The position numbers were made by a program, and so were the translations under genes. A stretch of DNA of 64,000 bases from an uncultured Bdellovibrionales bacterium (GTDB lineage Bacteria > Patescibacteriota > Minisyncoccia > Moranbacterales > UBA2206). The stretch covers positions 15,779-79,778 of the forward strand of contig CAYLWX010000002.1 in NCBI GenBank assembly GCA_964387895.1, given 5' to 3'. Position 1 is the first letter of the stretch, and each line of letters opens with the position of its first letter. Shown here in pieces: positions 8,019 through 23,748 of this stretch. The notes beneath the pieces are model-generated. The model ran no database searches. It was not told the DNA's origin and was given only the letters and a program-made list of their open reading frames with translations.

Positions 8019-8912
8019 ATGAAAAAAATTATCGTCATCCTTGGTCCTACTTCTTCCGGAAAGTCCGATATTGCCATCAAACTTGCCCGGAAATTTAACG
8101 GCGAGATAATTTCGGCTGATTCCCGGCAGGTGTATCGCGGTATGGATTTGGGAACAGGAAAAGTTTCCAAAAAAGAACAGCAACTGGCGCCGCATCATAT
8201 GTTGGATATCGTCAGCCCCAAAACGGACTACAACGCGGCTAAATTCAAAAAGCAAGTGGAAAAAGTTATTGTTGATATTTTGAAAAGAAAAAAATTGCCT
8301 ATCCTCTGTGGCGGAACCGGATTTTGGATTAAAGCTTTGGTGGATGACATAACTTTTCCTAAAGTAAAACCGGATTGGAAACTAAGGAAGAAACTGGAAG
8401 CATATTCTGCTGATAAGTTATTCAGCATGATTAAAAAACTGGACAAATCCAGAGCTGAAACCATTGATCGGCATAATAAAGTGAGATTAACCAGGGCTAT
8501 TGAAATATGCAAATCTATCGGGAAAGTACCACGAGAGAAGAAAGAAGCAAGCAGTAAGCAGTATGCGTTTTTGCAAATCGGCGTTAGTGTTCCAAAAGAA
8601 GAATTGCATGAAAGAATTAAGGCCCGTTTGGAAAAAAGGTTTACGCAAGGGATGATCCGTGAAGTAGAAAAGTTGCACGGACAAAATAACGTAAGCTGGA
8701 AGAGAATGGAATCGTTTGGATTGGAATACTATTGGATCGCGTTATATTTGCAGAAAAAAATTTCCAGGAAAGATTTGAAAGAAAAACTTTTTCAAGACAG
8801 TAAAAATTACGCCAAACGGCAGATGACGTGGTTTCGGAAAGGTGAGAGGATTGTGTGGCTGGGAAATTATGAGGAGATTGAAAAATACGTGAAGATGTTT
8901 TTGGAGAAATAA
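8019..8912 (+). CDS. miaA: tRNA dimethylallyltransferase
   Basis: MKKIIVILGPTSSGKSDIAIKLA P-loop, DSRQVYRGMDLGTGK motif. Typical MiaA. Start moved to the ATG at 8019 (the track ORF starts upstream within the repeat). Confidence 0.85.
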   Translation: MKKIIVILGPTSSGKSDIAIKLARKFNGEIISADSRQVYRGMDLGTGKVSKKEQQLAPHHMLDIVSPKTDYNAAKFKKQVEKVIVDILKRKKLPILCGGTGFWIKALVDDITFPKVKPDWKLRKKLEAYSADKLFSMIKKLDKSRAETIDRHNKVRLTRAIEICKSIGKVPREKKEASSKQYAFLQIGVSVPKEELHERIKARLEKRFTQGMIREVEKLHGQNNVSWKRMESFGLEYYWIALYLQKKISRKDLKEKLFQDSKNYAKRQMTWFRKGERIVWLGNYEEIEKYVKMFLEK

Positions 8913-8931
8913 AAATATTGAGAGCCGGCGC

Positions 8932-8955
8932 TAAATTGCGCCGGCTCTATTTTTA
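8932..8955. terminator. bidirectional rho-independent terminator between convergent miaA and the amidohydrolase gene
   Basis: gagccggcgc-taaatt-gcgccggctc perfect 10-bp stem, flanked by A-run and T-run. Confidence 0.6.
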
Positions 8956-10080
8956 GATTTTAGGAAAATCTCCATTTATACCCTGAAAAACCTTAGTGTC
9001 CCGGTAGAGAGCTCTGGAAACCTGCTCCCTGTCCATATCATTTGGAGTTTCCCCGCAACCGATTTTTGCCCAGAGATCCAGGACATAAAATCGGAGGGAA
9101 TCCGCAAGATACACCAATTCTTCCAATATATTCGCGTCTCCGGTGGGAATAAAAATGTCAGCAATGTTATCCGTCCCTATCCGAATAGGAATTTCCCATT
9201 TAATCATTTCCAGAATTCGCGCGACACTATTATGTATCGGCGCGGAGAGAGATCGTAATTGACGCATGGAAAGAGCGGCTCTGGGGCAGCAAATCACGCC
9301 TATGTGGTATGTTTTCAGCCCTTCCAGAAGTTTCTTGAATCTGTATTCATCGTAGCAGGAAGGGGAAAGCGCGTGGACTGCCCATACCGTTGGATAAAAG
9401 TGACGCTCTATCTCAGGAGAGCCAATCCATCGCACTGCTTCAATGAGGGTTTCTGTTCCATTTTCCCGAGGATCATTCCCCTGGTCAACATGCACGTGAA
9501 CTTCTTTCTTTAGCGCTATGCCTAACTCCAGTACTCTCTTCAAATGAGCATCGTAGCCAATTCTGTCCGGCGCGTCATCTTTTTCCGGCAACGCACCAAT
9601 AAAATCGCACATTCTTGATGCTTCTACAAACACTTCCCACCGGTCTGGATTTACTTCTGGTTTTTTAAATCCAAAGATGGGCTGGGTTCCCACCTGAAAA
9701 TTAATCCTGCCCTTAAATTCTTCCTTGAGTTCCAGTGCTGGAATAATTGCTTTTAGTCCTATATCCGGAGTCGCGTCAATGAGTGAAGCCACTCTCTTTG
9801 TTCCAAAGTGAATCATTCTTTCCAGCTGGCACGCTACTCTGTCTTTAAATTCTTTATATTTATACGCGTCACTTTTGTGAAGCTCTCCGGTAAGATTTTG
9901 CTTTACTCTTAATGGAAGCGTGGCTGCCTCCAATGGGTCAATGCTGGCACGTTCCCAAAACTTTGGATCAAGCGTATTCGCCCGATCCAGATGGGCATGC
10001 GCATTCACCCAACCGCCATACTCTTCCGCCCTGTCCAAAAGTTTTCTCTTGAATGGAGAAAGCGCTTCCTTCCAGTCCAT
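8953..10080 (-). CDS. metal-dependent amidohydrolase, cytosine-deaminase-like
   Basis: WVNAHAHLD metal-binding HxH motif near the N-terminus, HVHVDQ and GTDN motifs. Overall resemblance to CodA/amidohydrolase_3. Substrate not assignable. Confidence 0.55.
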   Translation of the reverse strand: MDWKEALSPFKRKLLDRAEEYGGWVNAHAHLDRANTLDPKFWERASIDPLEAATLPLRVKQNLTGELHKSDAYKYKEFKDRVACQLERMIHFGTKRVASLIDATPDIGLKAIIPALELKEEFKGRINFQVGTQPIFGFKKPEVNPDRWEVFVEASRMCDFIGALPEKDDAPDRIGYDAHLKRVLELGIALKKEVHVHVDQGNDPRENGTETLIEAVRWIGSPEIERHFYPTVWAVHALSPSCYDEYRFKKLLEGLKTYHIGVICCPRAALSMRQLRSLSAPIHNSVARILEMIKWEIPIRIGTDNIADIFIPTGDANILEELVYLADSLRFYVLDLWAKIGCGETPNDMDREQVSRALYRDTKVFQGINGDFPKI

Positions 10081-10326
10081 ATCCTGCCCTTTCTATTCTA
10101 TTGTTAAAAAACAAAAAAGACGTCCCTTTAGACGTCCCTCCCTTGGAAATAGTGATTTCGTTTTCCGCATACTTTCAGAAGTATAGCGAAAATGGTTCGG
10201 GATTGTCAAATCAACTTCCTCTTAATAGTTGAAATCTTTATTTTTCAGAAGCTTATATTTTATACAGTTAGTAGAGATGTTTTTGAAATAAAATTACACT
10301 ATAAAATATTTTCCTGAAACACACTG

Positions 10327-14684: not shown

Positions 14685-15131
14685 TTGGCAATGGCAGTAG
14701 AGAAAACTGTTGTAGTGGTTAAACCTCATGTCCGCAGACACTTTCCAGATTATGGAAGAGTTCTGGAGGATATACTAGACGTTTACACAATGGGTCTGAA
14801 ATTAAAAATACTAGCTGTTAGAAACGTACTCTTTACCCAAAGACAAGCTGAAGCTTTCTATTCAGAACACTTTGGAAAAACATTTTACGAGAAACTTATC
14901 CAAGCTCAATTGGAAGGACCATGCACAGTGATAATATTAGAAGGAGAGGATGCGATCAAAGCGGTTCGCTACATCCACGGTCCCACTAATCCAGATGACT
15001 GGAGAGAGGGACACCTGAGAAAAAGATACGGAAAACCCGAAGAAGGAGGACCATACAACGCTCTTCACGCGACAGACAGCCCTGAAAAATATGAGAGAGA
15101 GTACCTGATCACACTAATGACGGTCGTTTAG
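14685..15131 (+). CDS. ndk: nucleoside diphosphate kinase, divergent
   Basis: VVVKPHV, GPTNPDDW and NALHATDSPE correspond to the NDK motifs (KPDG, GATNP, NxxHGSDS) including the catalytic His. Good SD. Confidence 0.55.
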   Translation: MAMAVEKTVVVVKPHVRRHFPDYGRVLEDILDVYTMGLKLKILAVRNVLFTQRQAEAFYSEHFGKTFYEKLIQAQLEGPCTVIILEGEDAIKAVRYIHGPTNPDDWREGHLRKRYGKPEEGGPYNALHATDSPEKYEREYLITLMTVV

Positions 15132-15175
15132 ACCACAAAAGAGGCGGTTCCAGTGAAACCGCCTCTGATTATTTT

Positions 15176-15937
15176 TTATTTCAGTATTTCCGCTACCGCG
15201 CTGCCATATCCGCCAATATTCCCTACAAAACTTTTTAAATCTTTTCCATCCACGCACACAAGTGATTTCATTTCCTGGTCATTATACTGTGAAAATAATT
15301 GCAATAATTCTCCGCAAGATATATTTAATGTTACAAAAAATAACGCGCCAACTGTGTAGCCGTCAGTAAGCACCAATCCTCTTATGTAACAATCTTTTAT
15401 TAATGTCGTACGTATTCCTGTCTCTTCTTCCAACTCTTTATAAAGTACGCTAAATAAATCCTTACTCCCAGCAATTACTAATTCATCGTGCGAAGCTACT
15501 CCTCCAATAAAATCAACCTTCTTATGATTCATGGTATTGCCGGATAATTCTCCGAAAATATACTTTTCATCAGAAGTTTTAATAATACTGGCTACAAAAA
15601 GTCCTTTGCTGTAGTATTCCTCATCCATTTCCGCCACCTCAGGAACAAAACGCATAGTGTTTCTCACACTAAAATCAATGGTTGAAAGTTCCAGGGATAA
15701 TTTCTTTTTAGAAAACGCATACGCGTTCAGACGATAGGTTGAAGAATCCCATACCTTTACGCCTTTATCCTTTGCTTCCCGCACCCGTTGATCCCAGAGA
15801 TTTATAATCTTACTTTCCAGTTCCGGATCTATTTTTCGATGAGAAGCTTCATTTACCGTGATAGAAATATCGTCAGGGTAGTAGATTCCTTGTAGTAATA
15901 CGCGTGGTAGATTTGTAGCCATTCTTTTTATTTTCAA
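15176..15937 (-). CDS. hypothetical protein, divergent Nudix-like (KELEEETGI resembles the REUxEExGU Nudix box)
   Basis: 253-aa ORF in the nucleotide module. Only a partial Nudix box is recognisable, so low confidence. Confidence 0.3.
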   Translation of the reverse strand: MKIKRMATNLPRVLLQGIYYPDDISITVNEASHRKIDPELESKIINLWDQRVREAKDKGVKVWDSSTYRLNAYAFSKKKLSLELSTIDFSVRNTMRFVPEVAEMDEEYYSKGLFVASIIKTSDEKYIFGELSGNTMNHKKVDFIGGVASHDELVIAGSKDLFSVLYKELEEETGIRTTLIKDCYIRGLVLTDGYTVGALFFVTLNISCGELLQLFSQYNDQEMKSLVCVDGKDLKSFVGNIGGYGSAVAEILK

Positions 15938-15956: not shown

Positions 15957-16496
15957 TCACACCTGCACCTCTTTCCCTTCCGTGCTCACTCTTCCTCCCT
16001 GCCACTGGCCTCGGTATTGGTTTCCCTCGCCGTCCACTTGATGAAAAGTAATGTGTACCACTCGCGCGCCGAAAGAAACTTTTATAGCGCTTTTTCCAAG
16101 ATTGCAAATGCCAAAGGTAAGTTCGCCGGAGTATCCTGGTTGGACCACTCCGTTAAAAAGTCCCAGTCCGGAACGGAACAGTGTGGTACGGGGGAAAATA
16201 ATTCCGGAAATATCTACCGGCAAATTCACCTTTTCCATGGTTTTTATCAAATAATACTTTCCCGGCTCAAACACAAAATGAGTTTCCTTTTCCGGATCAA
16301 AACCAGCAACCAGTTTTGCTTCAGGAGTATTTCTTTCTTCCACTCCTAAAAATCCATCGCCTTCTAATTCGTATATTTCCCCCATCCGCAAATCAAATCC
16401 CGCTCCTTCGGGATTATTCATCTCCCGTTCGCAAAGATTCTCCACTAACTTTATTTCATCAACAAGCTGATGAAGTTTTTTAATTCCCAAGATCAT
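15957..16496 (-). CDS. dcd: dCTP deaminase / dUTPase-superfamily enzyme
   Basis: GFDLRMG ... IFPRTTLFRSGL ... VQPGYSGELTFGICNLG are typical dcd/dut trimeric-fold motifs. Confidence 0.75.
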   Translation of the reverse strand: MILGIKKLHQLVDEIKLVENLCEREMNNPEGAGFDLRMGEIYELEGDGFLGVEERNTPEAKLVAGFDPEKETHFVFEPGKYYLIKTMEKVNLPVDISGIIFPRTTLFRSGLGLFNGVVQPGYSGELTFGICNLGKSAIKVSFGARVVHITFHQVDGEGNQYRGQWQGGRVSTEGKEVQV

Positions 16497-16505
16497 AAAA
16501 TAATG

Positions 16506-17006
16506 TTAACGAGTTAATTCTAAAAAAGTAAATTTATGCTCTCCGTTATCACGCGCCTCTTCACTTATTATATTTTTAAACTCTGAATAATCCGGAAAGT
16601 ATGTATCCGCTTCATATTCTCCTTCAACCACAGTAAGGTAAAGTTTATCCGCGAAACTCATCGCCTGCTGGTATACCTGCCCGCCGCCGATAACAAATAT
16701 TTCTTCTCTTTCTACTTCTCCTGCTTTTTCAAGCGCCTCTTCCATTGAATGGCATACAACACATCCTTCCAGTATTAAATCAGCTTTTCTCGTAAGCACA
16801 ATATTCACTCTCCTTGGTAACGGCCTGCCTATAGAGTAGAAAGTATTTTCTCCCATAATTACAGGGTGTCCCGCGGTGATAGATCTGAAATGCTGAAGGT
16901 CTTCCGGAATATTCCACAAAAGCCGGTTATCCTTGCCAATTGCCCGATCTCTGGCAATGGCGCAGATGATGCTAATGATTGGTTTTTTATTAACTTTTTC
17001 TGGCAT
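16506..17006 (-). CDS. folA: dihydrofolate reductase
   Basis: ISIICAIARDRAIGKDNRLLWNIPEDLQHFRSIT ... VIMGENTFYSIG. Classic DHFR. Confidence 0.85.
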   Translation of the reverse strand: MPEKVNKKPIISIICAIARDRAIGKDNRLLWNIPEDLQHFRSITAGHPVIMGENTFYSIGRPLPRRVNIVLTRKADLILEGCVVCHSMEEALEKAGEVEREEIFVIGGGQVYQQAMSFADKLYLTVVEGEYEADTYFPDYSEFKNIISEEARDNGEHKFTFLELTR

Positions 17007-18606
17007 AGTTTTTGGTAGTTTCCCTGAATCCTCCGATATTGGCTATAGGCGCCCTAAGAACGCCATGCGGATCGTAATTTTCGAGAATAATATCTTCTAG
17101 TTTGAATTCATCAATATTTTTTATTTCAGGATTCAGTTTTAACGTTGGAAACGGACGGGGAGTTCTTTCAAGCTGTTCTTTTACTTGATCAAAGTGATTA
17201 GAATATATATGAACATCTCCAAAAAAATGCACAAAATCTCCTACTGGAAGTCCGGTTGCCTGTGCCACCATCATGAGCAGCAACGCGTAGCTGGCAATAT
17301 TAAAGGGAACTCCCAGAAATGAATCCGCGCTTCTCTGGTAAAGTCCGCAATTTAATTTTCCATCTACCACCGCGAATTGGAAGGTCGTGTGGCAAAAAGG
17401 CGGCACCTCATTTTTATTTTTCTCGGACGCCATCGCGTAAATAAAATCCGGATTCCAGGCTGAGATTACATACGACTTGCGGTATGGATCATTTTTCAGC
17501 CCGTCAATTATCCACGAAAGCTGATCAATTTCCCTCCCGTCACTGGCTGGCCATCTCCGCCACATTCGTCCGTAAATCGTAATGAGATCTCCCCAGGTTT
17601 TCACAAACTCGCTGTCTTTATCCTCTGATTTAAGTTTGGCAATAAATTCTTCCTGGGATATATCCTGCTCCGCCAGATTATTCTGCGAGCAGTGTTTATG
17701 ATATCGCTTATACGCCCATTCATCCCAAATATGGACGTCCCTGTCCACCAGATACTTAATATTCGAATCTCCGCTTAAAAACCAAAGCAATTCAACAAAA
17801 ATTCCGCGGGAGAATACTTTTTTGGTTGTGAGAAGCGGAAAGCCCTTGCTTAATTCAAACCGCATGCTCCGTCCGAATACCGATCGAATGAAAGGAGGTT
17901 CTTCCCCCTTATCTTTGTATTGTTGCAATACTTCAGGAGTAAAGAATAATTGTTTGTCTGATCCGTTATCCAAAATATCTTGTAAGAGATTGAGATATTG
18001 ATACTCCGGATAAGTATCCTTAGTTTCCGCGACACAACTGCCACATGCGCCTGTGAAAATAATTTCTTCTTTTCCTTCAAAAGTATTTTTAAAATTCTCT
18101 AAATTTCCGGAAAATTTCTCCAATATTATTCCACGCTTGTTTGCCAATTCTTTTACTTCGTTTTCTTTTTCCGTTCCAGTGTTTCCTGCCTTAACTCTTT
18201 CATATTCTTCAAAATATACAATTCGTTTTACGCCTAAATTATTAAGCGCTTTCATGCAGTCGTAGCAGGGAGAAGAAGTAACGTATAACGTGGAATTTTT
18301 AAGTCGTGTGGGATTACCGGCATTCATGATGGCGTTAATCTCGCTGTGCGCGCCCCGACAACGTTTCAGTTCTTTGGTAACAGGATCGCCATCTACCTTG
18401 GCACATCCCACCTCAAGACAATGACTGTCTCCACGGCTCGGTCCATTATATCCTGTCGCGACAATTCGATGATCCTCATCCACAAACACCGACGCGATTT
18501 CATGGTACCGGCATGCCGCGCGCTTAGCTAAAATTTTAGCCAGCATCATAAATGTTTCATCCCAGTCAGGGCGGGTGTGCTTGATCACTTTTTTAGGTGA
18601 GGACAT
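16990..18606 (-). CDS. thyA: bifunctional dCMP deaminase (N-terminal) - thymidylate synthase ThyA (C-terminal) fusion protein
   Basis: N-terminal ~160 aa carry HCLEVGCAKV...CAHSEINAI...SSPCYDCMKAL (CDA-fold dCMP deaminase, HxE and PCxxC). The C-terminal ~340 aa are ThyA: PPFCHTTFQFAVVDGKLNCGLYQRSADSFLGVPFNIASYALLLMMVAQ has the catalytic Cys and the dUMP-specific Asn. Confidence 0.8.
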   Translation of the reverse strand: MSSPKKVIKHTRPDWDETFMMLAKILAKRAACRYHEIASVFVDEDHRIVATGYNGPSRGDSHCLEVGCAKVDGDPVTKELKRCRGAHSEINAIMNAGNPTRLKNSTLYVTSSPCYDCMKALNNLGVKRIVYFEEYERVKAGNTGTEKENEVKELANKRGIILEKFSGNLENFKNTFEGKEEIIFTGACGSCVAETKDTYPEYQYLNLLQDILDNGSDKQLFFTPEVLQQYKDKGEEPPFIRSVFGRSMRFELSKGFPLLTTKKVFSRGIFVELLWFLSGDSNIKYLVDRDVHIWDEWAYKRYHKHCSQNNLAEQDISQEEFIAKLKSEDKDSEFVKTWGDLITIYGRMWRRWPASDGREIDQLSWIIDGLKNDPYRKSYVISAWNPDFIYAMASEKNKNEVPPFCHTTFQFAVVDGKLNCGLYQRSADSFLGVPFNIASYALLLMMVAQATGLPVGDFVHFFGDVHIYSNHFDQVKEQLERTPRPFPTLKLNPEIKNIDEFKLEDIILENYDPHGVLRAPIANIGGFRETTKNYARKS

Positions 18607-18622: not shown

Positions 18623-19180
18623 TTAACTTTTTATTCTTTTAATAATGCTATCCGCCTGACGGCATAATTCATCCACCGTTTTCTCATTAATTACCACGTA
18701 GTCCGCCATAGCAATAGGACCGGCCTGGTGCAGATTTTCTATTTGAGCGTAATCCCTGCTCTCTGACTCTTCAGGGGAAAGCGGCCGCACTGGTCTTTGG
18801 CTCAATCTTCCATACCTCACTTTTGGACAAGCATGCACTGCGATAGTTTCAAACTGGCTTCCAAAAAATTTTTTAAAATACAAATACTCCTCCCAGCTAT
18901 ATAAACTCTCTACTAAAATAATTTTTTCTTCTTTTAAAGATTTAATCTTCTTCACTACTTCTTCCGCGAGGCAAAGTAACCCTCTCTTTTCCCGCAAATC
19001 TTCGCGCGCCAACCGCTCGTTTTTTTCAGTGACCTCCAGACCTCTTCTTTTCATCTCATCAAAAACAACATCCCCGAAATATACCTTTTTAAGCGTGTAG
19101 TTTTCTACTAAATATTTTACTGTCTCTGTTTTCCCTGAACCAGGTAATCCTAACACTGCGATAATTTTTTGATTATCCAT
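18623..19180 (-). CDS. P-loop nucleoside/nucleotide monophosphate kinase-like protein (adenylate-kinase fold)
   Basis: VLGLPGSGKTETVKYL Walker A, 185 aa. The family is not resolvable (dephospho-CoA-kinase-like or NMP-kinase-like). Confidence 0.5.
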   Translation of the reverse strand: MDNQKIIAVLGLPGSGKTETVKYLVENYTLKKVYFGDVVFDEMKRRGLEVTEKNERLAREDLREKRGLLCLAEEVVKKIKSLKEEKIILVESLYSWEEYLYFKKFFGSQFETIAVHACPKVRYGRLSQRPVRPLSPEESESRDYAQIENLHQAGPIAMADYVVINEKTVDELCRQADSIIKRIKS

Positions 19181-19189
19181 TGGGTTATA

Positions 19190-20452
19190 TTACTTCAAAT
19201 TTTTATACAACGGAAACTTCTTACACAACCCTTTCACTTCCTTTCTCACCCGACTCAACACTTTCTTATCCGTATGATTTTCCACCACTTCATAAATCCA
19301 CTTCGCGATCATTTTTATTTCCTTCTCCTTCATTCCGCGCGTGGTGACTGCCGGCACGCCGATGCGTATGCCGCTTGGATCCATGGGGCTTCTCGGGTCA
19401 TCCGGAATCATGTTTTTGTTCAGCGTGATGCCGACTTCATCCAGCGCGACTTCGGCTTCTTTTCCTGTCACGCCCTTACTGCCGAATACATCCGCCAGCA
19501 CCATATGGTTATCCGTCCCGCCAAACATAATTTTAAAGCCGTATTGTACCAGTTCTTTTTCCAATACCTTCGCGTTTTTGATCACTTGTTTCGCGTAGCG
19601 GCGGAAATCCGGTCTCAAGGCTTCTCCAAACGCGACCGCTTTGGCCGCGATATTGTTCATATGCGGTCCGCCCTGAAATCCCGGGAAGGCCGCTTTATCG
19701 ATCGCTTTGGCAAATTCTGCTTTGCACAAAATCATTCCCCCTCTCGGACCGCGTAATGTTTTGTGCGTAGTGGTGGTTACAATGTCAAAATAAGGCACGG
19801 GATTCGGTAGCGCGCGTCCCGCGATGAGCCCCGCAATGTGCGCGATGTCAATCATGGACACGGCCCCGACTTTTTTGGCAATCGCCTGAAATTTCGCGTA
19901 ATCCAATTGGCGAGTGTACGCGGAAAATCCGGCTAAAATAAGTTGGGGGTTTTCTTTGATCGCCATTTCTTCCAGCGCTCTGTAATCAATAAGCCCTGAC
20001 GCGTCTGTTTTATATCGAATAAAATTATACACTTTTGCCGCAAGCGTTACCGGATGGCCATGTGTCAAATGTCCGCCATGGGAAAGATCCATGCCCAATA
20101 CTTTGTCGCCCGGTTTCAACACCGCGCTATAGGCAATCATATTGGCCGGCGCTCCGGAGAGCGGCTGGACATTGACATGTTCGGATCCAAAAAGTTTTTT
20201 CGCCCGCGCTATCGCCAATTCTTCCACTGCATCAGTATACTTCTGCCCGCCATAATATCTTCTCCCGGGATATCCTTCGGAATATTTATTAGTAAAGACT
20301 GACCCCAATGCTTCCAGCACCGCAGAAGAAACATAATTTTCCGAAGCAATAAGCTCCATTCCTTCCTGCTGGCGTTTAATCTCGCCCAGCGTGGCGCGAT
20401 ACACTTCTTTGTCCTGGAATTTGAGATGTTTCATAATTCCCAACCTTACCAT
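19190..20452 (-). CDS. glyA: serine hydroxymethyltransferase
   Basis: PLP-binding [14 protein letters not shown] motif, full-length SHMT. ATG at 20434 ([10 protein letters not shown]) is an alternative start. Confidence 0.9.
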
Positions 20453-20542
20453 TTATGCAATAATTGCAATTTTAGTATACCTGTTTATGCAAAACATGTC
20501 ATGCAAAAACAGTTGAAAGAAACAAAAAGCCCTCTCCGGGCT

Positions 20543-21103
20543 TTATTTATTCAATACTTTTTTCATTATTTCATCCACTGAAGTATACAGATAATCCAGA
20601 TCTTTTTCATTTACTATTTTAAAATCCGCCGTGGCGCCGATTTCCGGAATAAGTACTTCCGTGGCGCCCCGTTCGATTTCCTGGAATTTTTCAAAACTCA
20701 TATTGTCGTCTGATTTTTCCCCTCTTTTTATGGAGCGTTCCCAGCGCAGCTTTCGATCCGCGGTCGTGTAGATAACGTGACTCTCTGGAAAATTCTTTAC
20801 CATCTCATAATCTTCCCAATACCGTATACCATTCACCACCACTAATCCCTCTTCTTTATCAATTCTTCTTTTCAATCCCTTGCAAAGAATATTCGCGCCG
20901 AATCTTTTTTTAAATTCAATTGCCAGCCATTGCTGGTCTTCTTTGGAAATTTGATCAAAATAGATATGCAGCGCGTCTTTTAAAGGATCAATAAATCTCA
21001 TTACTTTTGCGCCGTAATGTCGCGTAAGATATTCCGCGACAGTATCCTTTCCTGATCCGCTTTCGCCGACGAGACCAATTAAAATTCTTTTTTTATATTC
21101 CAT
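20543..21103 (-). CDS. deoxynucleoside monophosphate kinase, phage T4 gp1-like
   Basis: LVGESGSGKDTVAEYL ... DPLKDAL matches the T4 Dnk signature (SGKDT ... PIKDAL). 186 aa. Confidence 0.6.
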   Translation of the reverse strand: MEYKKRILIGLVGESGSGKDTVAEYLTRHYGAKVMRFIDPLKDALHIYFDQISKEDQQWLAIEFKKRFGANILCKGLKRRIDKEEGLVVVNGIRYWEDYEMVKNFPESHVIYTTADRKLRWERSIKRGEKSDDNMSFEKFQEIERGATEVLIPEIGATADFKIVNEKDLDYLYTSVDEIMKKVLNK

Positions 21104-23595: not shown

Positions 23596-23672
23596 TGGTG
23601 GGCGTATCTGGATTCGAACCAGAGACCTCGTCATTATCAGTGACGCGCTCTAACCAACTGAGCTATACGCCC
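23596..23672 (-). tRNA. tRNA-Ile (anticodon GAT), CCA encoded
   Basis: Reverse complement GGGCGTATAGCTCAGTTGGTTAGAGCGCGTCACTGATAATGACGAGGTCTCTGGTTCGAATCCAGATACGCCCACCA folds as a cloverleaf with anticodon loop CTGATAA. Confidence 0.9.
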
Positions 23673-23675
23673 TTG

Positions 23676-23748
23676 TGGACCGTGCCGGACTCGAACCGGC
23701 CACCTCCTCGGTGCAAACGAGGCACTCTACCAGATGAGCTAACGGCCC
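23676..23748 (-). tRNA. tRNA-Ala (anticodon TGC)
   Basis: Reverse complement GGGCCGTTAGCTCATCTGGTAGAGTGCCTCGTTTGCACCGAGGAGGTGGCCGGTTCGAGTCCGGCACGGTCCA. Acceptor G3:U70 Ala identity pair present. Anticodon loop TTTGCAC. Confidence 0.9.

What the first reader, a model, noticed from the sequence alone, without database searches (positions are those of the whole stretch)
16990..18606. Fused dCMP deaminase - thymidylate synthase in one 538-aa polypeptide
Seen: residues ~1-165 carry the zinc-dependent dCMP deaminase motifs (HCLEVGC, CAHSEINAI, PCYDCMKAL). Residues ~200-538 are a full ThyA with the catalytic Cys (PPFCH) and the dUMP-specifying Asn in PFNIASY. A short linker contains CGSC. Established: the two enzymes catalyse consecutive steps (dCMP to dUMP to dTMP). 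DHFR-TS fusions are known in protists, but I do not know of a dCMP-deaminase-TS fusion being characterised. Inference: the fusion would channel dUMP directly to ThyA.
Basis: partly seen in the sequence, partly recalled or inferred. Interest (0 to 1): 0.55.

Follow-up and report, generated by a model that had tools for sequence, protein, structure and literature searches.

The report
Fused dCMP deaminase–thymidylate synthase gene
Two neighbouring genes for consecutive steps of thymidine-nucleotide synthesis (dCMP to dUMP to dTMP) have merged into one 538-residue protein in this tiny-genome (Patescibacteria) bacterium; the merger looks real, is rare, has arisen several times independently, has no description in the papers I could search, and is made of two ordinary, well-known enzymes.

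Summary
Window 16990..18606 (-) is one uninterrupted 538-aa ORF. It has a complete zinc dCMP-deaminase domain (res 1-177: GYNG, HxE, PCxxC), an ~20-residue linker predicted to be disordered, and a complete ThyA (res 199-538: Cys405, Asn436).

It lies in a six-gene thymidylate operon: glyA, a P-loop kinase, the fusion, folA, a dcd/dut-like gene and an unknown ORF.

The closest relatives have the same gene order, but with two genes (186-aa deaminase, stop, 12-27 nt AT-rich spacer, ATG, 347-aa thyA). In the window, the stops, spacer and start codon are replaced by 21 in-frame bases (VAETKDT). ThyA therefore has no start codon of its own, so a one-base sequencing error cannot explain the fusion.

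Six other fused protein clusters exist in Patescibacteria, three of them dCD-Nudix-ThyA, plus one Dcd-ThyA fusion. Domain identities indicate at least three independent dCD-ThyA fusions. Only 1 of 160 scanned relatives' loci is fused; 23 have directly adjacent genes.

No paper describing this architecture was found, no solved structure spans both domains, and no phage record encodes it.

Most likely this is a functional bifunctional enzyme that fixes 1:1 stoichiometry and proximity. Direct dUMP channelling is unproven, and no fixed interface is predicted.

Verdict: new variant of a known kind, modest interest.

The parts
16990..18606 (-). Whole fused ORF, 538 aa plus stop codon (dCMP deaminase::ThyA)
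18076..18606 (-). dCMP deaminase domain, residues 1-177
   Evidence: Pfam PF00383 at res 14-132. PDB best hits are dCMP deaminases. AF2 pLDDT is mostly >90 for res 5-177.
18442..18453 (-). G52-Y-N-G55, matching the DCTD allosteric-site motif G(Y/W)N(A/G)
   Evidence: Position. Motif definition from PMC12088426.
18352..18423 (-). Loop-3 His/Cys cluster (H62, C63, C68, C83), candidate ligands of the second zinc typical of dCMP deaminases
   Evidence: Aligned to the S. mutans 2HVV loop. Second zinc on loop-3 of dCMP deaminases is described in PMC4683357. The ligand assignment is inferred.
18340..18348 (-). HxE catalytic motif (H87 zinc ligand, E89 proton shuttle)
18256..18270 (-). PCxxC zinc-ligand motif (P113-C114-Y-D-C117)
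18013..18075 (-). Linker, residues 178-198. It consists of the former C-terminal tail of the deaminase, including CGSC (18034-18045), plus a new 21-nt bridge.
   Evidence: AF2 pLDDT <50 for res 178-195. The tail is homologous to the '...GTGCSC*' end of the stand-alone P0121.
18013..18033 (-). 21-nt in-frame bridge GTCGCGGAAACTAAGGATACT (VAETKDT). It replaces the stop codons, AT-rich spacer and ATG found in unfused relatives.
16993..18012 (-). ThyA domain, residues 199-538, of the L. casei-like long type. It begins at YPEYQY, the same point as 'M..HPEYQY' in stand-alone relatives.
   Evidence: TIGR03284 361.8 bits (cut-off 108.35) and NF002496 343.6 bits (cut-off 325). PDB sequence and fold matches.
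17389..17403 (-). PPFCH with the catalytic Cys405. A Phe is inserted before the Cys, preceded by a 7-aa insert SEKNKNE (17407-17427).
   Evidence: HMMER alignment to 6AUJ and 3UWL. Positions.
17287..17307 (-). PFNIASY with the dUMP-specifying Asn436
19190..20452 (-). glyA (serine hydroxymethyltransferase), first gene of the operon
   Evidence: PF00464, E 1.1e-153
18623..19180 (-). P-loop nucleotide-kinase-like gene. Its stop codon ends 16 nt before the fusion's ATG.
   Evidence: AAA_17/AAA_18. Weak (d)CMP kinase and adenylate kinase hits. Weak hit to the kinase-like part of PADLOC dCTP-deaminase model.
16506..17006 (-). folA (dihydrofolate reductase). Its start overlaps the end of the fusion ORF by 17 nt.
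   Evidence: PF00186, E 4.3e-53. Coordinates.
15957..16496 (-). dCTP deaminase / dUTPase-like gene, a possible second route to dUMP
   Evidence: PF22769 9.3e-23 and PF00692 1.3e-11. Below the NCBIfam equivalog cut-offs.
15176..15937 (-). Last gene of the operon, 253 aa, unknown function
   Evidence: No Pfam hit even at E<=10
20474..20502 (-). Promoter-like site upstream of glyA (ATGACA-17-TATACT). This is a consensus match only.
15140..15166 (-). Terminator-like hairpin (12-bp stem, 7 G-C pairs) closing the operon

Best explanation
This is a genuine, evolutionarily recent gene fusion. In a Patescibacteria (Moranbacteria-like) genome, the intercistronic region between two adjacent genes was lost in frame. 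The two genes are a ComEB/DCTD-type dCMP deaminase and thyA. The loss removed the stop codon(s), the ~12-27 nt AT-rich spacer and the ATG. The product is one polypeptide with a complete deaminase (dCMP + H2O -> dUMP + NH3), a flexible linker of about 20 residues, and a complete ThyA (dUMP + CH2-THF -> dTMP + DHF). It is expressed from a thymidylate operon that also supplies SHMT and DHFR for the folate cycle. Shown: the continuous ORF, both complete domains with catalytic motifs, the unfused ancestral arrangement in syntenic relatives, and recurrence of the architecture in other lineages. Inferred: both activities are retained. Also inferred: the fusion's effect is obligatory 1:1 co-expression and co-localisation of the dUMP producer and consumer, probably in an oligomer built from deaminase rings and ThyA dimers, and the deaminase keeps dCTP/dTTP allosteric control because the GYNG motif is kept. 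True substrate channelling is possible but unproven.
For: The ORF is continuous and both domains are complete. AF2 gives two confident domains and a disordered linker. The closest deaminase relative, P0121 (186 aa; 80% over the whole domain+linker query, 85% over the 168-aa core), lies in contigs L006-L011. There the order is dCD, 18 nt, thyA(347 aa), folA, dcd/dut, which matches the window's synteny but unfused. The junction comparison is: relative '...GTGCSC TAA TAA gctaattttaaaaaa ATG EKNHPEYQY' against window '...TGACGSC VAETKDT YPEYQY'. The nearest in-frame canonical start after the junction is TTG at Leu212, inside ThyA's first helix (read; helix). ThyA therefore depends on the fusion for translation. 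Other fused clusters are P0002, P0391 (L069), P0392 and P0393-5; P0002 was seen in independent assemblies from ENA/JGI and Logan. Independence of the fusions rests on domain identities. The window's domains are 85%/84% identical to unfused proteins but only 60%/76% to any fused one. P0391's domains are 88%/87% identical to unfused proteins and 75%/71% to fused ones. The mutational path is short. In 9 of 13 adjacent pairs the two genes are in the same frame, and in several a single stop codon separates the two open frames.
Against: The window's exact fusion is a singleton: one NCBI contig, cluster size 1, and no identical or near-identical copy in 160 related loci. It therefore lacks independent read-level confirmation. 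No biochemical data exist for any member. The deaminase domain is below the NCBIfam ComEB equivalog cut-off (84.3 against 219.45). The ThyA clade has unusual features: a Phe inserted before the catalytic Cys, and K377/S378 where E. coli has R126/R127. Its activity is therefore inferred, not certain, although unfused relatives share these features. The fusion is rare (1 fused locus among 160 relatives), so any advantage is small or lineage-specific.
Confidence: 0.8

Rival explanations
1. The fusion is a dedicated channelling machine. dUMP made by the deaminase domain passes to the tethered ThyA active site without equilibrating with the pool. This would keep free dUMP/dUTP low and put dTMP output under the deaminase's dCTP/dTTP allostery.
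For: The two steps are consecutive. ThyA fusions to dUMP suppliers recur: dCD-ThyA, dCD-Nudix-ThyA and Dcd-ThyA. The allosteric GYNG motif is retained. From memory, not checked here: T4 dCMP deaminase and thymidylate synthase interact physically in the dNTP synthetase complex.
Against: AF2 predicts no fixed inter-domain interface; the linker has pLDDT<50 and pTM is 0.63. Linker sequences and lengths are unrelated among the fused lineages, at about 25-50 residues. The great majority of close relatives do without a fusion. Proximity alone seldom gives kinetic channelling of a small diffusible metabolite (general enzymology).
Confidence: 0.2
2. The fusion is an assembly or sequencing artefact, or an inactivating lesion in one MAG. 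In the real organism the genes are separate, as in its relatives.
For: It is a singleton sequence with no independent copy found. Relatives have the two genes in the same frame separated by as little as one stop codon, so a single error could in principle fuse them.
Against: The junction differs from relatives by loss of about 12 nt, of both stops, of the A/T-rich spacer and of the ATG, not by one base. If a stop were restored anywhere in the bridge, ThyA would have no start codon. Both flanks are syntenic, so a chimeric join is unlikely. The same architecture is present in independent assemblies of other lineages.
Confidence: 0.07
3. The deaminase domain is not a housekeeping dCMP deaminase but a dCTP or modified-nucleotide deaminase related to the anti-phage dCTP deaminases. 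On this view the locus is a defence or nucleotide-depletion module.
For: There are weak partial matches of the deaminase domain (67 bits) and of the upstream kinase-like gene (39 bits) to the two halves of the anti-phage dCTP deaminase models NF041025 and PDLC02373.
Against: Scores are far below the NF041025 cut-off (67 against 400). ComEB and solved dCMP deaminases match better. The context is a housekeeping glyA-thyA-folA operon conserved across Patescibacteria. Fusion to ThyA makes sense only for a dUMP-producing reaction.
Confidence: 0.03

Closest known systems
Stand-alone dCMP deaminase (ComEB/DCTD-type) plus ThyA encoded by adjacent genes in Patescibacteria (e.g. P0121 + 347-aa ThyA on L006-L011; L012, L013)
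   Same: 80-85% (deaminase) and about 81-84% (ThyA) identity. Same operon order: kinase, dCD, thyA, folA, dcd/dut. Same C-terminal Cys tail on the deaminase and the same HPEYQY start of ThyA.
   Different: In the relatives there are two polypeptides, separated by stop codon(s), a 12-27 nt AT-rich spacer and an ATG. Here those are replaced by 7 sense codons.
Bifunctional DHFR-TS of protozoa and plants (e.g. PDB 3DL6, 8DAE, 1J3I)
   Same: ThyA is the C-terminal domain of a two-enzyme polypeptide whose N-terminal partner belongs to the same thymidylate cycle, joined by a linker (the ThyA domain matches these entries).
   Different: The partner there is DHFR, which consumes ThyA's product DHF. Here the partner is the dUMP producer, and DHFR is a separate gene overlapping the 3' end of the fusion. 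No electrostatic channel or fixed interface is predicted here.
Other Patescibacteria ThyA fusions found here: dCD-ThyA (P0002, P0391, P0392), dCD-Nudix-ThyA (P0393-5), Dcd/dUTPase-like-ThyA (P0399)
   Same: A dUMP-supplying enzyme is fused N-terminally to ThyA, joining at the same (H/Y)PE(Y/H/R)QY start of ThyA.
   Different: These are independent events, with unrelated linkers, different gene order (DHFR is upstream of P0002), a different ThyA subclade (FPICH type) in P0391-P0399, and an extra Nudix domain in P0393-5.
Phage T4 dNTP synthetase complex (dCMP deaminase Cd with thymidylate synthase Td) - recalled from memory, not checked here
   Same: Physical association of the same two activities. 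T4 Cd (1VQ2) is a detectable homologue of the N-domain.
   Different: The T4 association is a non-covalent multi-enzyme complex. No phage record encodes the two as one ORF (0 of 5000 records with >=80% coverage).
[quoted passage not shown]
   Same: One polypeptide carries out consecutive steps leading to dUMP (described in PMC12088426). A Dcd/Dut-like gene sits two genes downstream of the fusion.
   Different: An unrelated fold and a single active site, not a two-domain fusion.
Anti-phage dCTP deaminase (NF041025 / PADLOC PDLC02373)
   Same: Kinase-like module followed by a dCMP-deaminase-like module, in the same order as the window's kinase gene followed by the deaminase domain.
   Different: Scores are far below cut-off. 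Here the kinase is a separate gene and the deaminase is fused to ThyA in a housekeeping operon.

Membership tests
Zinc-dependent dCMP deaminase (DCTD/ComEB type, EC 3.5.4.12) | HxE catalytic motif (zinc-ligand His and proton-shuttle Glu) | tested here: met
   H87-S-E89, aligned to HAE of 2HVV, 1VQ2 and 2W4L. Definition from PMC12088426.
Zinc-dependent dCMP deaminase (DCTD/ComEB type, EC 3.5.4.12) | PCxxC zinc-ligand motif | tested here: met
   P113-C114-Y-D-C117
Zinc-dependent dCMP deaminase (DCTD/ComEB type, EC 3.5.4.12) | Allosteric-site motif G(Y/W)N(A/G) | tested here: met
   G52-Y-N-G55. Motif as stated in PMC12088426.
Zinc-dependent dCMP deaminase (DCTD/ComEB type, EC 3.5.4.12) | Closer to dCMP deaminases than to TadA, RibD or CDA | tested here: met
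   The PDB top four are all dCMP deaminases, E 2e-17 to 1e-10. NCBIfam scores: ComEB 84 bits, RibD 27, TadA 26.
Zinc-dependent dCMP deaminase (DCTD/ComEB type, EC 3.5.4.12) | Score above the NCBIfam ComEB equivalog cut-off (TIGR02571) | tested here: not met
   84.3 bits against a cut-off of 219.45. It should be filed as dCMP-deaminase family (Pfam PF00383 passes: 77.6 against 25), not as a ComEB equivalog.
Zinc-dependent dCMP deaminase (DCTD/ComEB type, EC 3.5.4.12) | Ring-shaped homohexamer; activation by dCTP and inhibition by dTTP; activity on dCMP | not testable with these tools
   Needs purified protein.
Thymidylate synthase ThyA (EC 2.1.1.45) | Score above curated equivalog cut-offs | tested here: met
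   TIGR03284 361.8 against 108.35; NF002496 343.6 against 325
Thymidylate synthase ThyA (EC 2.1.1.45) | Catalytic nucleophile Cys followed by His (E. coli C146-H147) | tested here: met
   C405-H406, aligned to the CH of 6AUJ and 3UWL. An unusual Phe is inserted immediately before the Cys.
Thymidylate synthase ThyA (EC 2.1.1.45) | dUMP-specifying Asn (E. coli N177), as opposed to Asp in dCMP hydroxymethylases | tested here: met
   N436 in PFNIASY
Thymidylate synthase ThyA (EC 2.1.1.45) | Phosphate-binding Arg pair donated by the partner subunit (E. coli R126/R127) | tested here: inconclusive
   The aligned positions are K377 and S378, with an Arg (R376) one position earlier. This is shared with unfused clade members P0003, P0008 and P0002, so it is a clade trait, not a defect of the fusion.
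Thymidylate synthase ThyA (EC 2.1.1.45) | Obligate homodimer; DHF-producing methyl transfer | not testable with these tools
   Indirect support only: DHFR and SHMT genes lie in the same operon.
DHFR-TS bifunctional enzymes | DHFR domain fused N-terminally to TS | tested here: not met
   The N-domain is PF00383, not PF00186. DHFR is the separate ORF 16506-17006.
Anti-phage dCTP deaminase (NF041025 / PDLC02373) | Full-length match above cut-off, with a kinase-like N-domain fused to the deaminase | tested here: not met
   67.4 bits against a cut-off of 400, and only the deaminase part matches (336-432 of 437). The kinase-like protein is a separate gene.

The most novel reading that the evidence does not exclude
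The covalent dCMP deaminase-ThyA protein assembles into a defined particle, for example a deaminase hexamer ring carrying three ThyA dimers. In that particle dUMP would be kinetically channelled and dTMP output gated by dCTP/dTTP binding to the deaminase. On this reading the fusion is a natural 'Rosetta stone', showing that these two enzymes also work as a physical complex where they are separate (unfused Patescibacteria, the T4 dNTP synthetase complex).
Probability: 0.2. Interest if true: 0.55.

Novelty: new variant of a known kind. Interest (0 to 1): 0.35.

Why it matters
The fusion links the dUMP-producing and dUMP-consuming steps of dTMP synthesis in one chain, a partner combination different from the well-studied DHFR-TS. 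ThyA has been fused repeatedly and independently to dUMP suppliers in Patescibacteria: to dCMP deaminase, to deaminase plus Nudix, and to a Dcd/dUTPase-like enzyme. This pattern suggests that coupling dUMP supply to ThyA is useful in these tiny, low-copy-number cells. It also provides ready-made constructs to test whether dUMP is channelled and whether deaminase allostery controls ThyA flux. In practice it shows that annotation pipelines label such proteins simply 'thymidylate synthase' and so hide the second activity. It does not reveal new chemistry.

Tried and rejected
(1) A protein-word search with the deaminase part alone returned only stand-alone deaminases and not even P0001 itself. It therefore cannot be used to judge how rare fusions are.

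(2) A full-length search of the 50%-identity representative library showed no fused representative among the best 150. The query's own cluster is represented by a 337-aa ThyA, so fusions are hidden inside ThyA clusters. This gives only weak evidence of rarity.

(3) An exact look-up of P0001 in the contig index found nothing, and its cluster has one member. There is therefore no independent copy of this exact fusion.

(4) The metagenome scan gave 80 loci, none fused and 11 with adjacent genes. None was closer than 84% in ThyA.

(5) tblastn against phages found no record covering at least 80% of the query in one place. The viral fold search gave one 408-aa 'CMP/dCMP deaminase domain' protein aligned over 287 columns at 15% identity. 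I could not retrieve it to test for a distant phage analogue.

(6) The afdb50 fold library was unavailable.

(7) Literature searches for the fusion found no description of a natural dCMP deaminase-TS fusion in titles or abstracts. I opened only one of these papers. My guess is that the few Toxoplasma papers matching 'deaminase-thymidylate synthase' concern engineered selection markers.

(8) I tested whether the last operon ORF (15176-15937) is the Nudix found in the triple fusions. There is no Pfam hit at E<=10 and no BLASTP similarity, so this was rejected.

(9) A defence-system reading was rejected because the scores are far below cut-off and the context is housekeeping.
Full report
OBSERVATION

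The ORF 16990..18606 on the minus strand (ATG start, 538 aa) exists exactly as described.

- **Domains.** Pfam finds a complete dCMP_cyt_deam_1 domain (res 14-132, profile 2-101/102, E 7.7e-22). It also finds a complete Thymidylat_synt domain (res 203-522, profile 2-265/266, E 2.4e-93).
- **ThyA models.** The NCBIfam ThyA equivalog models are passed: TIGR03284 scores 361.8 against a cut-off of 108.35, and NF002496 scores 343.6 against 325.
- **Motifs.** All quoted motifs are present, with one small misreading.
- **Junction.** The true junction is at 18013-18075 rather than ~18100.
- **Other copies.** No second deaminase or thyA copy is in the window.

THE TWO DOMAINS

The deaminase domain:
- The N-terminal 197 residues match solved dCMP deaminases best: S. 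mutans 2HVV (2.3e-17), T4 1VQ2, human 2W4L and cyanophage S-TIM5 4P9C.
- Among NCBIfam deaminase models, ComEB is best at 84 bits, against RibD 27 and TadA 26. However, 84 bits is below the ComEB equivalog cut-off of 219.
- The domain has HxE (H87, E89), PCxxC (C114, C117) and G52YNG55. The last fits the G(Y/W)N(A/G) allosteric motif that PMC12088426 gives for dCMP deaminases.
- A His/Cys-rich loop-3 (H62, C63, C68, C83) sits where dCMP deaminases hold a second zinc. The ligand assignment is inferred.

The ThyA domain:
- It is the long L. casei / E. faecalis type, 45-47% identical to those structures.
- It has the nucleophile Cys405-His406 and the dUMP-specifying Asn436.
- It has clade-wide peculiarities, shared with unfused relatives. 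A Phe is inserted directly before the catalytic Cys. A 7-residue insert (SEKNKNE) precedes it. K377/S378 stand where E. coli has R126/R127, with an Arg one position earlier.

The predicted structure:
- AlphaFold2 (84-row alignment) gives mean pLDDT 84.6. It predicts two confident domains and a stretch with pLDDT<50 at residues 178-195; pTM is 0.63.
- No solved structure covers both domains; TM-score normalised to the query is at most 0.52, which corresponds to the ThyA part only.

CONTEXT

The gene lies in a minus-strand operon:
- promoter-like site, 20502-20474;
- glyA (SHMT), 20452-19190;
- a P-loop kinase-like gene, 19180-18623;
- the fusion, 18606-16990;
- folA (DHFR), 17006-16506, overlapping the fusion by 17 nt;
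- a dCTP-deaminase/dUTPase-like gene, 16496-15957;
- an unknown 253-aa ORF, 15937-15176;
- a strong terminator-like hairpin, 15166-15140.

The operon thus encodes the whole thymidylate cycle (SHMT, TS, DHFR) plus two possible routes to dUMP. The relatives are all Patescibacteria MAGs (Moranbacteria/Moraniibacteriota, Parcubacteria, Falkowbacteria and others).

HOW THE FUSION AROSE

- **Closest relatives are single-domain proteins.** For the deaminase this is P0121 (186 aa; 80% over the whole query, 85% over the core). For ThyA they are P0003 and L096 (346 aa; 83-84%).
- **Same synteny, unfused.** The contigs carrying P0121 (L006-L011) have dCD(186 aa), 18 nt, thyA(347 aa), folA, dcd/dut. This is the window's gene order, but unfused.
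- **The junction.** In the relative it reads '...GGT TGT TCT TGC TAA TAA gctaattttaaaaaa ATG GAA AAA AAT CAT CCC GAA TAT'. In the window it reads '...GGC GCA TGT GGC AGT TGT GTC GCG GAA ACT AAG GAT ACT TAT CCG GAG TAT'.
- **What was kept.** The deaminase's natural Cys-rich C-terminal tail (CGSC) and ThyA's natural N-terminus (PEYQY) are both retained.
- **What was lost.** The two stops, the A/T-rich spacer and the ATG are replaced by 21 in-frame bases encoding VAETKDT.
- **No independent start for ThyA.** No ATG, GTG or TTG lies in frame until Leu212, inside ThyA's first helix. ThyA can therefore only be made as part of the fusion.
- **Not a one-base error.** A single-base sequencing error cannot create this junction, and the flanks are syntenic, which argues against a chimeric join.
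- **Remaining weakness.** This exact sequence is a singleton: cluster size 1, absent from the contig index, and no near-identical copy in 160 related loci. I could not inspect reads.

HOW COMMON IS THE ARCHITECTURE

- **GTDB species representatives.** Of 80 loci, one is fused: L069, Ca. Staskawiczbacteria, equal to P0391. Twelve have dCD directly upstream of thyA, and many more have one or two genes in between.
- **Metagenome loci.** Of 80 loci, none is fused and 11 have directly adjacent genes.
- **Protein searches.** These add P0002 (524 aa; independent ENA/JGI and Logan assemblies; DHFR upstream there) and P0392 (537 aa). They also add three dCD-Nudix-ThyA triple fusions (P0393-5, 643-697 aa). 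One of these is in NCBI nr as plain 'thymidylate synthase [Candidatus Falkowbacteria bacterium]'. There is also a Dcd/dUTPase-like-ThyA fusion, P0399 (527 aa, 13 members).
- **Independence.** The window protein is 85%/84% identical to unfused proteins but only 60%/76% to the nearest fused one. P0391 is 88%/87% identical to unfused proteins and 75%/71% to fused ones. The P0002/P0392/P0393-5 group shares a deaminase lineage but carries different ThyA subclades. This implies at least three independent fusions.
- **Linkers.** They are unrelated in sequence and about 25-50 residues long, but all join at the same (H/Y)PE(Y/H/R)QY start of ThyA.
- **A short mutational path.** In 9 of 13 adjacent pairs the genes share a frame, and in several a single stop codon separates the two open frames.
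- **Elsewhere.** No phage record encodes the two as one ORF. The searchable literature yielded no description of a natural dCMP deaminase-TS fusion.

MECHANISM

The best-supported reading (about 0.8) is a functional bifunctional enzyme. The deaminase domain makes dUMP from dCMP. The tethered ThyA methylates it to dTMP using methylene-THF from the co-encoded SHMT. The co-encoded DHFR recycles the DHF.

What the fusion certainly changes is genetic. Two cistrons a few bases apart, which were probably co-translated, become an obligatory 1:1 product that is always co-localised.

According to PMC12088426, dCMP deaminases are ring hexamers with inter-subunit allosteric sites. From general knowledge, ThyA is an obligate dimer. 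A closed assembly of one ring with three ThyA dimers is geometrically conceivable, but this is inference.

It is not supported by the disordered, non-conserved linkers, by the absence of a predicted interface, or by the rarity of the fusion.

I put artefact at about 0.07 and a defence-type dCTP deaminase at about 0.03. For the latter, the partial matches are far below cut-off and the context is housekeeping.

COMPARISON AND NOVELTY

The closest known things are:
- the unfused gene pair in sister genomes;
- DHFR-TS (same principle, different partner, with ThyA also C-terminal);
- the non-covalent T4 dCMP deaminase / TS association (from memory, not checked here);
- DCD-DUT.

The protein qualifies as a dCMP-deaminase-family domain plus a ThyA equivalog. 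It is not a member of DHFR-TS or of the anti-phage dCTP deaminases.

As an architecture it is a new variant of a known kind. It is present but unremarked in databases and is uncharacterised. Its chemistry is predictable from its parts, so interest is modest (0.35).

The more interesting by-product is the pattern: ThyA is repeatedly fused to different dUMP suppliers in Patescibacteria.

Noticed in passing
P0393, P0394, P0395 (643-697 aa) and P0399 (527 aa), found with L069:2870-4417 as query: Other Patescibacteria carry dCMP deaminase-NUDIX-ThyA triple fusions and a dCTP-deaminase/dUTPase-like-ThyA fusion. P0395 is in NCBI nr named only 'thymidylate synthase'. Stand-alone Nudix genes lie between dCD and thyA in some loci (L020, L044, L105, L106).
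   Followed up: partly
window 17389-17484 (-), residues 375-406 of the fusion; also P0003, P0008, P0002: The ThyA of this clade has a Phe inserted directly before the catalytic Cys (PPFCH) and a 7-aa insert (SEKNKNE). It has K377/S378 where E. coli ThyA has the phosphate-binding R126/R127, with an Arg shifted one position earlier. A second Patescibacteria ThyA clade (L069, L019, L086, P0392-P0399) has FPICH and no Arg pair at all (xHNA(I/L)VNSWNP).
   Followed up: partly
window 18034-18045 (-) (CGSC); stand-alone relatives P0121-P0240: 37 of 120 stand-alone dCMP deaminases of this clade end in a C-terminal CxC/CxxC tail. Another subset ends in a basic residue plus an aromatic one (...RF or ...RW). 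The function of these tails is unknown. The Cys tail survives inside the fusion's linker.
   Followed up: partly
window 18623-19180 (-) and 20543-21103 (-): Two P-loop nucleotide-kinase-like genes flank glyA. Both, together with the deaminase domain, weakly match the kinase-like and deaminase halves of the anti-phage dCTP deaminase models (PDLC02373, NF041025). This hints that the defence enzyme has the same kinase-then-deaminase order as this housekeeping gene pair.
   Followed up: partly
window 15176-15937 (-): The last gene of the thymidylate operon (253 aa) has no Pfam match even at E<=10. It contains KELEEETGI, which resembles the end of a Nudix box. It shows no BLASTP similarity to the Nudix domain of P0395. 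Syntenic relatives have a MazG gene after dcd/dut instead.
   Followed up: partly
window 14685-15131 (+): A nucleoside diphosphate kinase homologue (PF00334, 9.4e-28) with a TTG start lies on the opposite strand, just beyond the operon's terminator. The hairpin at 15140-15166 scores as a terminator on both strands.
   Followed up: no
window ~8900-10100: Convergent switch of gene orientation (long ORFs mostly on + before ~8.9 kb, on - after). It coincides with a change of GC skew from slightly positive to about -0.2 for the rest of the window. This could be a replication-terminus-like region or only a local strand switch.
   Followed up: no
window 23596-23748 (-): Adjacent tRNA-Ile(GAT) and tRNA-Ala(TGC), the pair usually found in rRNA operon spacers. 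I did not check whether rRNA genes flank them.
   Followed up: no
BFVD entry A0A8S5MQL3 (Myoviridae sp. ctOAa14, 408 aa): A phage protein annotated as containing a CMP/dCMP-type deaminase domain aligns structurally with the model over 287 columns (15% identity). It may be a distant phage deaminase + TS/hydroxymethylase-like fusion. The sequence could not be retrieved.
   Followed up: no
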